Below, in pieces: positions 18,755 to 49,585 of a stretch of DNA of 64,000 bases (positions within the stretch are counted from its first letter, which is position 1; each line of letters opens with the position of its first letter). This stretch comes from Eledone cirrhosa (Eukaryota). The stretch covers positions 48,918,001 through 48,982,000 of the forward strand of contig OZ024748.1 in assembly GCA_964016885.1 (NCBI GenBank), given 5' to 3'. The position numbers were made by a program, and so were the translations under genes. The notes under the pieces are model-generated. The model had not been told where the DNA came from and ran no database searches. It saw only the letters and a list, made by a program, of their open reading frames with translations.

Positions 18755-20855
18755 GTCTTAAACTCGAAATAGAAAATAATAATAGAATAGTCAACTTCCT
18801 AGACATAACATTAAACCTTAATTCTGGCGTTTACTATCCATTCCATAAATTAAATGAAAACCTTATTTGTGTTAGCTTCTGTTCAAACCACCCTAGGAAC
18901 GTTAAAAGGGCCATAGTTAATAGTATTCAACAAAGAGTCTTTGGACTCTCAGCTAACAAAGAAATGTTCGACAGTAAGGCTATAACAATGCTTTAAATAG
19001 AGCAGGTTACCTTGATTAAATTGAGTACATAGACAAAAACGATTCCCACCCACCTGTATAGAAATCACCATACAATAGATATTAACACTAACACACATAC
19101 AGTTTATAGCAATTCTACTAATGCTGATATCCAAAACCTAAGGACAAATCAAATTTCGAATCAATAGGTCCTATAAAAGAGTTTGATCCCATTCTGTTTT
19201 GTGGTATAGTCCACCATTATCATTAGGAATCAAGAAGAACTTAGCTTATCTTTACTTTTATGCTCTTGATAAATGTTTTCCAAAACCACATAAATATAGT
19301 AGAATCTTTAACCGACACACAATCAAACTTTCCTACTCAACTACTAAAAATATTGCTCAAAATATAGATAAAATTAACAATAGAAATTTAGGAATTAATC
19401 ATAAGGAGTTAACACACAATGGTAATCTTGGAATCACTAATGGAATAAACAACATCTCAATTAGCAACGATTACACCAGCAACATAGACGATGAAAACCT
19501 AACGACTTATAGACACAGAGTCGCATCATTGAACAGTACCATAAGTAATTGTAAAGAAAGTAATTTTTGCCCGTTAAACAATAATTGTCTTGATTCTAAT
19601 TTAGTTTATAAATGCACAGTTAAAACAAAAGATAAGTCCTATAACTATATTGGTGCCACCTCTTCAAAATTTAAAGAAAGATAGTACAACCATCACCACT
19701 CATTCAAGAGAGAAGATAAAAGATATAGCACGGCCCTTTCTGAATTGATTTGGTCACTTAAAAATAATAACATTGAATATTCCCTTTCTTGGCAGAAACC
19801 TTTGTTTTATAAAAATGTTTCTGTATCTAAAGGATGTGACCTCTGTACCACTGAAATTCTACATATCATTTATAATAGACAATTAATTATTAATAAACAT
19901 TCCGAATATTTAGCTCTTGTCTTCACAGGTTTTCAAAAACCTTTCATAGAGTTTTTAGTTAAACTTTATAAAATAAAAAATTAAATAAGTAAAGCTTCTT
20001 TACAAATTTTTAAGAGATTTCATTATGTTTACATAGAATATAAAGAAGAATAGACAGAATAAGTAAACTCATTTTTTTCATTATAACTTTTTCATCTACC
20101 TTATCTTTAGTTAGTATATAAGTAAATTAAATTTAATATAAATTGATAAACTAGGCTATAATACATACATCTTTTCTTATAATAATAGTTACACCAATAG
20201 TTTATATTTTCCTCTATGCATGTAATACCTACTTAAATATAATTGTTGTAAAGATAAATTAGACCACGGTAATTGCATCTCTTCTTTTGAACTAACTAAT
20301 TTATCTCATAGCATTATAACCATATCCGTTACATAAAGAAGCTATACCAATTGTTAAATATCTTTATACTCATATAATATCAATTTAAATTATACACAAA
20401 CACAGATAATTTACCTTTGAATTTTGTAATCCTAATTTTTCTTCTTTATTATTTAGTTTCAATATGATTCTTGTATCCTAAAATATTTTCTTTGGTATAA
20501 AATATATATAGATATATTTTAGTATAATATCTATTTTATGCTAATATAAGAAATATATAAACTGTCTAACGGTCAATATTTATATTTTTTTACCAATCTA
20601 ATTACGTCATATTTTAAATAATTTCAAAAACGTTAAGTCCAACTGCAATTTTCTCCCACTCGCATAACATCCGCTATGTTGGGGTTTTTGTCTAATTATA
20701 TGCTTGATTGTCACCGATCTGTCCAGATTGTTTGACCGCCAGTATATCAAAAGAAACTTGCATCTCCTATGCATGCATTTTATCTGATGGGAACATGTTT
20801 TGGATTATGTTATACATAAGCCTTGCATCTTCGAAATATATATAATAAAATAAAT
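18755..20855 (+). mobile_element. 5'-truncated, decayed Penelope-like retroelement (RT C-terminus, GIY-YIG endonuclease, 3' UTR with hammerhead)
   Basis: Translations VNFLDITLNL...SNHPRN, then WYSPPLS, CPLNNNCLDSNLVYKCTV...YIGATSSKFKER*YNHHHSF...STALSELIWSLK...CDLCTTE, with stops and frameshifts. The Cys-rich linker suggests the Neptune-like group (inference). Confidence 0.88.
20777..20851 (+). ncRNA. Hammerhead motif at the PLE 3' end (single core substitution A9>G)
   Basis: attttat CTGATGG gaa-c-atg..gg.ttatgt tat acataa.cc..cat-c-ttc GAAA TATATA T A ataaaat. Confidence 0.7.
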
Positions 20856-20944
20856 AGAGATGATCTAAAGAGATGATCTGGCATGTTCATATAGTAGTGG
20901 ACCTAAGGACAAAAAAAACAAAACAACAACAACAAAAAAACAGT

Positions 20945-21445
20945 TCAGTACCATATGAACATGCCAGACAAAGACACGACGGTAATATAGACAACATAGA
21001 AATTAAAATAATATCTAAGCATAGAAATGACTCAACAGGTAGGCAAATCAGAGAAGCAACTGAGATAGAACTAAGAAAACCAAGATTGAACAGAAAGAAC
21101 GAATGGAATAACAACAACCATACCGAAACAAACAATACTGACCTAAGGGAAATATAAATAAATAAATATATATATACACAAGTACAATAACAACAAACAC
21201 ATATAAACACACACTAGTGAACTAAGATAGAATACAGAAACAAAAACATATGCTCTCAAACACGAACACACACACCAAACAGGAAGCACACACGCAAATG
21301 CATACACAAACAGAGACAGAGACAAGAATAAATAAATGAATAAATTAAATAAAAATTGCGTAGGCATTACAATACAACAGGAGGAAACATAATAGTACCA
21401 CTGATGATGTCACAGATGTGTGACGAAAGAATTTTGATAGACTAT
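20945..21445 (+). mobile_element. Second PLE remnant: GIY-YIG C-terminus and 3' UTR with hammerhead
   Basis: EHARQRHDGNIDNIEIKIISKHRNDSTGRQIREATEIELRKPRLNRKNEW fits the GIY-YIG end pattern R-x-x-x-EA...P-x-LN. Confidence 0.7.
21392..21445 (+). ncRNA. Hammerhead motif (perfect stem II, weak stems I and III)
   Basis: atagtacca CTGATGA t GTCACA gatg TGTGAC GAAA gaattt tgatagactat. Confidence 0.55.
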
Positions 21446-22798
21446 ATATATATATATCTGTATTTTTAACCGTTGGTCAATCAATGATAAACATTGATTG
21501 CCAAATAAATTAACTATGGAGATATAAAAGATATAGAGGCGAAAACCAACCCAAACCAAACAGTGAGTTCTGTTATTATTTCTGGCAATATTATAACAAT
21601 AGGACCCTCCCCAAATATAACAATATATATATATCATCATCATCATCATCATTTTACGTTCGCTTTTTTCCTGGTTAGAGACATATATATAATGTGTTTG
21701 TGTATATTAATATTTCTGCAATGAAAGGCGTGATATCCATTATCTGTGATATGTATTTGACATATGATATCCTTATCTTAATATCTTCATCTGATAACAA
21801 ATTTTGGTTTAGATATTTTCACAAAGGTTTTCACAGACATTATTTCAATATGGCTGCAGTCTTTTGCAGATTCATTTTGATGATCATATCATCACCATCA
21901 TCATTGTCCTTACCATCTTCATTGCCACCATCGGCACTATCGTTGTCATCACCATAATCACCACTGCCATCACCACCACAATCATCGTCATTAGCAGCAT
22001 CACCACCACCACCACAAACACCATCAGCACCATCACCATCAGCACCATCTCACATATGTTTGTGTGTGATTGTCATTATCATCTTCATTTAACATCCATT
22101 TTTCCCTGCTACCAAGGGTTGAATGGGTCATCACAGATCAAGTTAGAACTTCCTCACTGCTACTGACCTCTCATGTTAGTGAAGGGTCTAGTTGCATCTC
22201 ACTTACAGGCTATATGTTATCATGGCACCTGCACTAGGGACGTTGTCATACCTTTGACACACCTGAAGAGTCCTCTCAACCCTCTGTTTGGCAATGTTTA
22301 TACAACTGGATGTTATTCTTATCACCAACCACTTTACAGAGTATCTTGGGTGCATTTTTCATGGCATGAACATTAGAGAGGTTGTTATGCTGTGTGTGTA
22401 TGTTTACTACACACACGCACATATATATCAAAGCCTTATTCTCTTTCCAACTTGCAATAAATTTATTATGTGTGTGTGTGTGTGTATATATATGGCTCTG
22501 TGCATATATATATATATATATATATATATATATATATATATATATATATATATATATATATATATATATATATATAATTTTATAATTCTTCGGCTCTGTT
22601 TAATTACATTGAGCTATATCTTATACTGTCATTTCTATAATATGAAGAGGGTGTTTAACTCCAACACACTCTAGTATTTTAATTCTTATATATATATATA
22701 TATATATATATATATATATATATATATATATATATATATATATATATTACAAAATAACAGGAGGGATGACTGGTGTAAATCCTTGAAAGGTTTATATT

Positions 22799-22856
22799 TT
22801 ACTATGATCATTTCAACGACCGGGTTCAGTATGAATCCGGTGACATCATCAGGTAA
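22799..22856 (-). ncRNA. Hammerhead motif, minus-strand arm
   Basis: Minus strand: ttac CTGATGA tgtc-accgg-a-ttca tac tgaa-c-ccggt-cgtt GAAA TGATCA T A gtaa. Palindrome ATGATCAT. Confidence 0.7.
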
Positions 22857-48028: not shown

Positions 48029-48535
48029 GGACATTATAGAAATGTGATATATACATTTGTATCTCTCTCTCTCTCTCTCTCTCTCTCTGTATATATGAGT
48101 GTGTGTATATATATATATTTAAACAAATAGAGCTATATATATATATATATATATATATATATATATATATATATGGGGACATTATAGAAATGTGATATAT
48201 ACATTTGTATCTCTCTCTCTCTCTCTGTATATATGAGTGTGTATATATATATATATTTAAACAAATAGAGCTATATATATATATATATATATATATATAT
48301 ATATATATATATATATGGGGACATTATAGAAATGTGATATATACATTTGTATCTCTCTCTCTGTATGTATGTGTGTGTGTGTATATATATATATATATAT
48401 ATATACACACACACATATATATGGGGAAATTATAGAAATGTGATATATACATTTGTATCTCTCTCTCTCTATCTTTCTCTCTGTATGTATGTATGTATGT
48501 ATGTATATATATATATATATATATATATATATATA
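48029..48535. repeat. Tandem 107-148-bp units beginning ggacattatagaaatgtgatatatacatttgtatctct (4 copies, another at 50187)
   Basis: Units start at about 48029, 48177, 48319 and 48426. Confidence 0.85.
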
Positions 48536-48723
48536 AATGAAAAGTATAGAAATTATTGTAGCAAGAAGCCAACAGTATTCCATAATATATAAGTGACTAT
48601 AGCGTCAAAATGGAAAAAATAGTTAACGTAAGATGTGGGAAAATAATTCAAACTCAATTCAAAAAGAATCAGGATATAGATTCATCCACAGATATATATA
48701 TATATATATATATATATATATAT

Positions 48724-49377
48724 ATATGAATAAAGTTAGTCCTTCATCAGTGATCTTCCAACCATCATTGGTATTTCATCGCTTTAAAGACCATATACCT
48801 CCGGTTGGTGCGAGCAATGGCAAAAAAAAGTCGTTGGGACACGTAAATAAAGGGGACACGAGAGTGTAAACAAACAAAGATGGTGAAGCAACGAAAAGTG
48901 AGGAAGAAGGAGTCGAGTCCCAAATTTCCATGAATATAAGTTTGGTGAAATCGTGAACAAGAGAGAATAAAGACCATCAAACCTGGTTGGAATGTGAGCA
49001 AGGAAGGAATTCCGTACAGGTCTAACGGGAGGAAGAAGGGATCTAGTCTGTGAATTCGGTGAACTTAAGTTCTGTGAAATCGTAGACGAGAGAGAGAAAA
49101 AAAGCGACCTGCCTGACAAAGGGTGCAAAAGAAAAGAATTACGCACAGGTCAAATGGGAAGAAGGAGGAGGAGGAGAGGTAGTAACAGAGAGTGAGTGAG
49201 TGAAGGGTGAGGAAGAGGCTAACAGAGAGGGTAAAGATACAGAGAAAGAGGAAGCAGTAAGAACGAAATAGACGGGTCACAGCGGGGGAAAAAATATGTG
49301 TAAATATGAGAATAAACGTGCTGCGTGGTTGCTAATGGGTTACATATGAATAAAGTTAGTCCTTCATCAGTGATCTT
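48724..49377 (-). mobile_element. 654-bp non-coding element with identical 34-bp terminal direct repeats, in (TA)n
   Basis: atatgaataaagttagtccttcatcagtgatctt at 48724-48757 and 49344-49377. The repeat contains CTGATGA on the minus strand. Confidence 0.6.
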
Positions 49378-49524
49378 ATATATATATATATATATATATA
49401 TATATATATATATATATATATATATATATAAAGATCACTGATGAATATATATATATATATATATATATATATATAGATATCAATGATATTAAATAAATGG
49501 AAACTATATTTATAAAACCATATT

Positions 49525-49585
49525 TATTTTATTATATATATTTCAAGGGTACCAAAACTTTGGTACGCTCTCATCAGATAAAATA
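49525..49585 (-). ncRNA. Intact minimal type I hammerhead motif
   Basis: Minus strand: tattttat CTGATGA gag-c-GTACCAA agtt TTGGTAC-c-ctt GAAA TATATA T A ataaaata. 8-bp stem I and palindromic helix III, in a ~170-bp cassette between (TA)n tracts. Confidence 0.85.

What the first reader, a model, noticed from the sequence alone, without database searches (positions are those of the whole stretch)
20777..49585. Hammerhead cleavage site falls inside the AATAAA poly(A) hexamer
Seen: in three different elements (20843-20850+, 23669-23676+ with its mirror, and 49527-49534-) the motif ends ...T A|ATAAAA. The H17 nucleotide is the first A of AATAAA, and the rest of the hexamer is the 3' strand of stem I, pairing with ttttat before CTGATGA. 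In two others (5700, 23026) AATAAA begins 5 nt after the predicted cut. Inference: ribozyme folding would mask the poly(A) signal and cleavage would split it. That suggests an either/or switch between polyadenylated mRNA and a self-cleaved template for retrotransposition or circularisation.
Basis: partly seen in the sequence, partly recalled or inferred. Interest (0 to 1): 0.75.

Follow-up and report, generated by a model that had tools for sequence, protein, structure and literature searches.

The report
Penelope hammerhead beside a poly(A) signal
These are hammerhead (self-cutting RNA) motifs at the ends of a very abundant Penelope-like jumping gene, and in most of its families a poly(A) hexamer sits at or just after the predicted cut, so a cut would likely strip the message of its tail signal, but the hexamer falls exactly across the cut in only about half of the copies.

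Summary
The motifs are type I hammerheads with palindromic stem III (predicted dimer cutters) in the terminal repeats of Hydra-clade Penelope-like retroelements. The genome has 72,891 matches of this class. AATAAA straddles the predicted cut in 38,821, starts at +5 in 33,828, and does both in 7,046; 90% have one or the other.

Across families the hexamer slides from 0 to +22, swaps AATAAA for ATTAAA, precedes a U-rich tract, and is kept at one position when lost at the other. It occurs in 31 of 52 clusters against 4.8 expected. It is therefore likely a working poly(A) signal, but not one designed into stem I: many families leave it unpaired.

Genomic copies run about 44-55 or 130-200 nt past the cut with the ribozyme intact. 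The template was thus neither cut nor polyadenylated there, unless re-ligated. Polyadenylation would leave the ribozyme whole, so the switch is one-way. No RNA evidence was available. Earlier scan notes saw a hexamer near Penelope hammerheads in this and other genomes.

The parts
18739..19984 (+). Broken, 5'-truncated Hydra-clade Penelope-like ORF remnant (RT end, linker, GIY-YIG endonuclease)
   Evidence: tblastn hits 18739-19870, 52-78% identity to natural frames of L063/L064/L067/L075; frames; no Pfam hit; 37,155 first-look candidates genome-wide
20777..20854 (+). Hammerhead A in the 3' repeat of that element: core 20784-20790 (CTGATGG, damaged), H17 20844, AATAAA at 20844-20849 and 20849-20854
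   Evidence: stem I poorly formed in the monomer fold (0.07-0.08)
23608..23714 (+). Hammerhead B with short element end: core 23616, stem III palindrome, H17 23670, AATAAA 23670-23675 inside stem I, U-rich tract, end about +44 into (TA)n
   Evidence: dimer fold gives the hammerhead shape, 12.1 kcal/mol below two monomers
23294..23489 (-). Inverted copy of B with the optional tail: core 23481, H17 23427, AATAAA 23427-23422, end at +133
49481..49585 (-). Hammerhead C: core 49577, H17 49533, AATAAA at 49533-49528 and 49528-49523, short end about +52
22970..23231 (+). Hammerhead D (GTAT-type stem I): core 22977, H17 23026, AATAAA 23031-23036 outside stem I, long tail to about +205
22745..22860 (-). 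Inverted copy of D: core 22852, H17 22803, hexamer lost in this copy
5659..5745 (+). Hammerhead E (second lineage, GUC triplet): core 5662, H17 5700, AATAAA 5705-5710, U-rich tract, end into (TA)n
4650..4692 (+). Minimal hammerhead of another family (4-nt palindrome), no hexamer nearby

Best explanation
The motifs are hammerheads in the terminal repeats of Hydra-clade Penelope-like retroelements, and the AATAAA/ATTAAA at or just after the predicted cut is likely the element's own polyadenylation signal, spaced to a downstream U-rich tract rather than to the ribozyme. Shown: element identity, copy numbers, hexamer positions, where inserted copies end. Inferred mechanism: the protein-coding mRNA is polyadenylated about 10-30 nt past the hexamer and so ends in a whole hammerhead. 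Two hammerheads pairing through palindromic stem III can cut at or 5' of the hexamer, which removes signal and tail from the message. The RNA that is reverse transcribed is the fraction that escapes both events and reads 44-200 nt further, or a re-ligated circle. Where the hexamer lies in stem I (about 31,800 matches have only position 0), masking may help that read-through, but it is a lineage state and not the design.
For: Identity: RLRWR and DKT motifs in L067; CxCx5C linker and CxxC/CxH motifs in L061-L080; (TA)n ends; these match the Hydra clade definition (PMC8557442 section 11). ORF remnants lie in loci of several hammerhead families. Signal-like behaviour: 65,603 of 72,891 matches have AATAAA at 0 or +5; 96 of the first 100 listed have a canonical hexamer within 0 to +13 (hand count). 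31 of 52 clusters against 4.8 expected, with 1 of 52 at +23 to +44, 4 of 52 antisense and 3 of 52 before the core. It slides: +6, +14, +21 in one family with the downstream sequence unchanged, +5, +9, +12 in another; hexamer position correlates with end position, rho 0.53 over 73 non-independent copies. Second lineage: 9 AATAAA, 13 ATTAAA, 1 AGTAAA, 1 truncated of 24 (four ATTAAA rows were printed one base off). T fraction 24-43 nt after the hexamer start is 0.51 in 30 clusters with it and 0.34 in 20 without. On the tree of 77 copies, clades lose position 0 or position +5; the 8 copies lacking both are scattered (127 of 500 shuffles as low), and 16 of 16 further ATGAA-type copies keep +5. A non-coding 469-nt tandem repeat with a hammerhead has no hexamer. 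A second hexamer near the tail end is found in only 13 of 63 rows. Six of 34 loci with an A-run stop or restart at that run, 11-33 nt after the hexamer.
Against: No RNA 3' ends or cleavage products were seen. 21 of 52 clusters lack the hexamer within +22; two of them have one at about +80 to +110. Only 3 of 25 published Hydra-clade families show a canonical hexamer in the roughly 25 nt listed after the cut (by eye, File S2). Clusters share ancestry, and loci L001-L030 were picked for position 0, so the shuffle test overstates independence. The six A-run ends are weak: the search window was 14-44 nt after the cut by construction, three sit on A-rich template positions, no target duplication was found, and most of the other 28 are internal A-runs. 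U-richness near the end may serve integration instead. Most copies have a U-A-type pair where G10.1-C11.1 is usual, so cutting may be weak.
Confidence: 0.65

Rival explanations
1. One reading: the overlap is selected so that stem I masks the hexamer and cleavage splits it, giving either polyadenylated mRNA or a self-cleaved template.
For: Position 0 in 38,821 of 72,891 matches; stem I pairing 0.58-0.90 over the hexamer in the 23616/23481 family; position 0 is the only hexamer in two clades; Hydra-1_aMil also has ATTAAA across the cut; stem sequestration of AAUAAA works in HIV-1 (PMC2645353 abstract) and in synthetic switches (PMC10353319 passages).
Against: Position 0 is lost repeatedly while stem I survives by G-U pairs; hexamers at +6 to +21 are 0.73-0.99 unpaired in the GCAGT family; copies extend 44-200 nt past the cut; in the anole element, ribozyme-dead RNA inserts normally in vitro and no reads ended at the cut (PMC11167929 part 2).
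Confidence: 0.12
2. The hexamer is a binding or folding element of the retroelement RNA (for its RT/endonuclease or a tertiary contact), not a poly(A) signal.
For: It keeps a roughly fixed distance (median 41-54 nt) to the short integration end; the anole hammerhead needs the element protein to cut; published Hydra families share an A-rich word after stem I that is often CATAAA or TATAAA.
Against: The common variant is ATTAAA, the second canonical poly(A) hexamer (recalled); sliding by up to 22 nt fits a tertiary contact badly.
Confidence: 0.13
3. No function: an AT-rich ancestral stem I that happens to read AATAAA, multiplied by copying.
For: All straddling copies are one lineage; A-U-rich stems make the word easy to form (shuffle probability up to 0.34 for single clusters); most published Hydra families lack it.
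Against: Present outside stem I in G+C-stemmed families and in a second lineage with shuffle probabilities of 0.01-0.2; no subfamily found that lacks both positions in the A-U-stem lineage.
Confidence: 0.1

Closest known systems
Hydra clade of C-terminal EN+ Penelope-like elements (Craig et al. 2021, PMC8557442; passages, section 11, supplement parts 1-2 of 59 and one search seen)
   Same: RW(K/R) and DKT motifs, CxCx5C linker, CxxC/CxH in the endonuclease, (TA)n targets, canonical hammerhead, inverted 5'-truncated copies and optional tail.
   Different: The listed Hydra-1_oBim hammerhead has another sequence and no hexamer; only 3 of 25 listed families show a canonical hexamer after the cut; the main text has 0 hits for polyadenyl, polya, aataaa, aauaaa. 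The tail here adds about 85-150 nt, against 30-40 bp described.
[quoted passage not shown]
   Same: Type I fold, unpaired base before stem II, palindromic stem III that favours dimers, many divergent families per genome, circle model for the template.
   Different: No mention of a poly(A) hexamer; G10.1-C11.1 is mostly replaced here; stem II is long.
Anole Poseidon element PAc (Frangieh et al. 2024, PMC11167929; parts 1-2 of 4 seen)
   Same: Two 3' ends downstream of an intact hammerhead, explained by internal RT starts on uncleaved RNA.
   Different: There the ORF starts inside the ribozyme; here the ATG lies 205 and 215 nt after the cut. No poly(A) signal is discussed in the parts read.
Clec2 3' UTR hammerhead (passage in review PMC6765202)
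   Same: Cut between stop codon and poly(A) signal removes the signal from the mRNA.
   Different: A split ribozyme in a host gene, not in a mobile element and not touching the hexamer.
HIV-1 poly(A) hairpin (PMC2645353, abstract only)
   Same: A terminal repeat carries a poly(A) signal that must be ignored at times; structure masks AAUAAA.
   Different: No ribozyme; masking is shown there, while here it is predicted and limited to some families.

Membership tests
Type I hammerhead ribozyme | CUGANGA and GAAA core, UH triplet, three stems in type I order | tested here: met
   stem II has both-sided changes in 11 of 21 predicted pairs over 7 copies; copy 20784 has a core change
Type I hammerhead ribozyme | Rfam hammerhead model match | tested here: not met
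   0 matches at gathering score; e-value mode not run
Type I hammerhead ribozyme | Self-cleavage at H17 | not testable with these tools
   needs in vitro transcription or cyclic-phosphate end mapping
PLE pLTR dimeric hammerhead | Palindromic stem III, dimer favoured | tested here: met
   8-nt palindromes; dimer 3.2-12.1 kcal/mol below two monomers in 19 of 19 folds, hammerhead-shaped in only some
Hydra-clade PLE | RWK-like and DKT motifs, CxCx5C linker, CxxC/CxH, C-terminal GIY-YIG | tested here: met
   against the definition and the alignment text (by eye)
Hydra-clade PLE | Insertion into (TA)n, inverted truncated copies, optional tail | tested here: met
Hydra-clade PLE | Placement on an RT phylogeny with reference clades | not tested
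   no RT tree was built
Canonical metazoan poly(A) signal | AAUAAA or AUUAAA on the sense strand of a 3' UTR | tested here: met
   sense to and downstream of the ORF
Canonical metazoan poly(A) signal | U/GU-rich downstream element | tested here: met
   T 0.51 against 0.34; profile; feature definition recalled
Canonical metazoan poly(A) signal | Poly(A) added 10-30 nt downstream in RNA | tested here: inconclusive
   6 of 34 A-run loci in DNA are compatible; no direct RNA ends
Structure-masked poly(A) switch | Hexamer paired in the ribozyme fold across families | tested here: not met
   paired in the 23616 family, unpaired in the GCAGT family; positions +4 to +22 lie partly or wholly outside stem I
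Non-LTR retrozyme (tandem, non-coding) | Tandem 150-1000 nt units without ORF | tested here: not met
   window motifs are dispersed ends of coding elements; a separate 469-nt tandem family does fit

The most novel reading that the evidence does not exclude
The Penelope terminal repeat is a ribozyme-gated poly(A) module, like a retroviral R-U5 with a built-in knife. Hexamer use makes mRNA; pairing of two hammerheads cuts off signal and tail and yields a unit-length, circle-ready RNA; in position-0 lineages stem I masks the hexamer enough to allow the read-through needed for the template. This would give the hammerhead of Penelope-like elements a role in vivo and would be a natural ribozyme-controlled polyadenylation switch.
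Probability: 0.2. Interest if true: 0.75.

Novelty: new variant of a known kind. Interest (0 to 1): 0.45.

Why it matters
The role of hammerheads in Penelope-like elements is open: Craig et al. call it unclear, and the anole enzyme does not need the cut in vitro. A poly(A) signal kept within 22 nt of the cut makes that question testable with one short reporter, and the genome supplies natural variants (masked, adjacent, distant hexamer). Tens of thousands of dispersed hammerhead-plus-hexamer stubs could also act as alternative 3' ends in host introns. I did not find the coupling in print in searches or in term searches of PMC8557442, PMC4209133, PMC3846280 and PMC2377424. The library is incomplete: Lunse et al. 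was not held, the Terminon paper was not listed, and figures and most supplements were not seen.

Tried and rejected
RNA evidence: no RNA holder listed. Contigs of 4 of the 6 listed runs, all of unrecorded kind, were laid on two families. No poly(A) loose end was among those shown (119 and 25 further rows not shown). This is no evidence either way.

Rfam at gathering score: nothing. Pfam on 3 frames: no significant hit. The repeat finder was swamped by microsatellites.

A 4-nt stem III register for TATATA copies (printed) was rejected: the 6-nt register gives the 7-8 bp stem I.

L201 looked like a subfamily lacking both hexamers; 16 of 16 further ATGAA-type copies keep +5, so it is a single mutant copy.

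A8 runs after TTGAT in one subfamily are templated, because element sequence continues after them (L277, L288, L291, L298-L300); they were not counted as tails. A second hexamer near the tail end was rejected as a conserved signal (13 of 63 rows). A TATA-like word before the ORF in L067 is missing in L030, so the start site is unresolved.

Monomer folding of these AU-rich motifs is unstable and flank-dependent; pairing figures are rough.
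Full report
Observation. H17 lies at 20844(+), 23670(+), 23427(-) and 49533(-). Each is the first A of AATAAA, and the following bases form the 3' strand of a 7-8 bp stem I. At 5700 and 23026 AATAAA starts at +5. Two of the straddling motifs (20844, 49533) have a second AATAAA at +5. The 20784 core is CTGATGG. The mirror at 22852 and the motif at 4656 have no hexamer. Stem III is an 8-nt palindrome, the layout that Cervera and de la Pena (PMC4209133, parts 1-2 read) link to cutting as dimers. 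The dimer fold of 23616 gives the hammerhead shape. Rfam did not detect the motifs.

What the elements are. The window is from a 3.0 Gb genome (G000). Upstream of the 20784 motif lies a broken ORF remnant at 18739-19870 with 37,155 first-look candidates in the genome. Longer natural frames from 20 fetched regions and the N-terminal frame of L067 show RLRWR, DKT, a CxCx5C linker and CxxC/CxH motifs. These, with (TA)n targets, define the Hydra clade of Penelope-like elements (PMC8557442 section 11). ORF remnants lie in loci of the 23616, ATGAA, GTAT, GCAGT and 5662-type families. Copies end either about 44-55 nt after the cut or, with the optional tail, about 130-200 nt after it, running into (TA)n. 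In two upstream repeats the ORF start lies 205 and 215 nt after the cut. No RT tree was built.

Genome-wide counts. The pattern CTGATGA N15-45 TGAAAT NNNN ATA has 72,891 matches (control 60). AATAAA starts at H17 in 38,821, at +5 in 33,828 and at both in 7,046; 65,603 (90%) have at least one. Of the first 100 listed matches, 57 have position 0, 48 have +5, 13 have both and 8 neither (hand count). Four of the 8 carry a hexamer at +9 to +13; the other four are point changes, a deletion or a truncation. These are copy counts, dominated by a few families.

Family level. 187 structurally filtered motifs from the loci then in hand (L001-L250 and the window) fell into 52 clusters (L001-L030 had been picked for position 0). 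31 of 52 have A[AT]TAAA starting 0 to +22, against 4.8 +/- 2.0 from dinucleotide shuffles. Controls on the representatives: 1 of 52 at +23 to +44, 4 of 52 antisense, 3 of 52 just before the core. Clusters share ancestry, so this is not a clean p-value. 21 clusters lack the hexamer, among them a non-coding 469-nt tandem family. Two others have it at about +80 to +110. In published Hydra-clade hammerheads only 3 of 25 families show a canonical hexamer in the listed flank (File S2, by eye), so the coupling is not clade-wide.

The hexamer is tied to what follows it, not to the cut. In the GCAGT family it lies at +6, +14 or +21 with the same sequence behind it; in the GTAT/GTGT family at +5, +9 or +12. 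Among 137 copies of the main lineage, 123 have it, at positions 0 to +22, and the short end moves with it (rho 0.53, 73 copies, not independent; the spread falls only from 8.9 to 7.9 nt). In a second lineage with a GUC triplet, 22 of 24 copies have AATAAA (9) or ATTAAA (13) at +4 or +5. The zone 24-43 nt after the hexamer start is T-rich (0.51 in 30 clusters, 0.34 in 20 without). Hexamer, spacer and U-rich tract are the standard poly(A) layout (recalled). On a tree of 77 A-U-stem copies built without the stem I and hexamer columns, clades have lost +5 (the 23616 family, the GGACGTAC family) or lost 0 through A-to-G changes that keep stem I by G-U pairs (ATGAA, ATAGA). The 8 copies with neither are scattered (127 of 500 shuffles as low). 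One of them has the hexamer at +6, and a suspected double-loss subfamily proved to be one mutant copy. A second hexamer near the tail end is not conserved (13 of 63 rows).

Is it used? Not shown. No RNA run was available. In DNA, searches for A-runs 14-44 nt after the cut gave 25 and 93 match rows, many repeating one locus; 34 loci were read. In five (L251, L261, L281, L301, L304) the element stops at the run, and in L275 it restarts after it, 11-33 nt after the hexamer, with the ribozyme intact. Three of the six sit on A-rich template positions, no target duplication was found and the distance range was set by the search. This is a weak hint that tailed RNA exists and is very rarely the template.

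Masking. Predicted stem I pairing is 0.58-0.90 in the 23616/23481 family, 0.07-0.27 in 20784 and 49577, and the hexamer is 0.73-0.99 unpaired in three GCAGT copies. Masking is possible in some families and absent in others.

How it most likely works (inferred from here on). The mRNA is polyadenylated just past the hexamer and so ends in a whole hammerhead. Two hammerheads pairing by stem III can cut at or 5' of the hexamer and remove signal and tail, as described for the Clec2 ribozyme (review passage). Polyadenylation does not destroy the ribozyme, so the relation is one-way. Inserted copies keep the intact ribozyme and 44-200 nt beyond it, so the template is read-through RNA that escaped both events, or a re-ligated circle. 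The first fits the anole element, where RT starts internally and ribozyme-dead RNA inserts normally (PMC11167929); the second is the published circle model. If transcription starts in the upstream repeat before its hammerhead, that first hexamer must be bypassed or cut away, the problem that HIV-1 solves with a hairpin (abstract). The start site could not be placed.

Verdict. The elements and their ribozymes are of a known kind. A poly(A) hexamer kept next to the cut, sliding and compensating between families, was not found in the papers searched (Lunse et al. not held; a 2026 preprint read only in part 1 of 5; figures and most supplements unseen). Earlier unreviewed scan notes report similar hexamers. 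The exact overlap is one lineage's state, and the either/or switch is unproven. New variant of a known kind; interest 0.45.

Noticed in passing
L161-L175, L179-L190: Tandem 469-nt non-coding repeat with a hammerhead in each unit (retrozyme-like); it makes up most listed rows of a pattern with 3,883 matches and has no A[AT]TAAA.
   Followed up: partly
window 23330-23380(-) and 23085-23150(+); many loci: A TACTCC...GAGTGC-like motif, possibly a hairpin, begins right after the short 3' end and is kept across otherwise divergent tails; a candidate RT-binding or initiation element.
   Followed up: no
genome-wide: Most hammerheads of the main lineage have T before GAAA (72,891 matches) rather than C (7,001 and 14,913 matches of looser patterns), so the usual G10.1-C11.1 pair is mostly replaced.
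   Followed up: no
window 23800-23925: A near-perfect palindromic insert that also flanks Penelope-like copies in L061, L070 and L133; probably another small mobile repeat.
   Followed up: no
window 55278-60197(-) and 61807-62139(-): A 1639-aa open frame and a frame with a PWWP-like motif (label recalled): a host gene on the same strand as hammerhead C, which lies about 5.7 kb further 3'.
   Followed up: no
window 21401-21440(+): Degenerate hammerhead of a family (L203, L208, L215, L216, L229) that mostly lacks the canonical hexamer.
   Followed up: partly
L275: A15 run 11 nt after the +5 hexamer, followed by re-entry into the element at the hexamer; looks like a template switch from a tailed RNA.
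   Followed up: partly
window 40120-40491(-): Frame resembling a LINE reverse transcriptase C-terminal part (recalled); no Pfam hit.
   Followed up: partly
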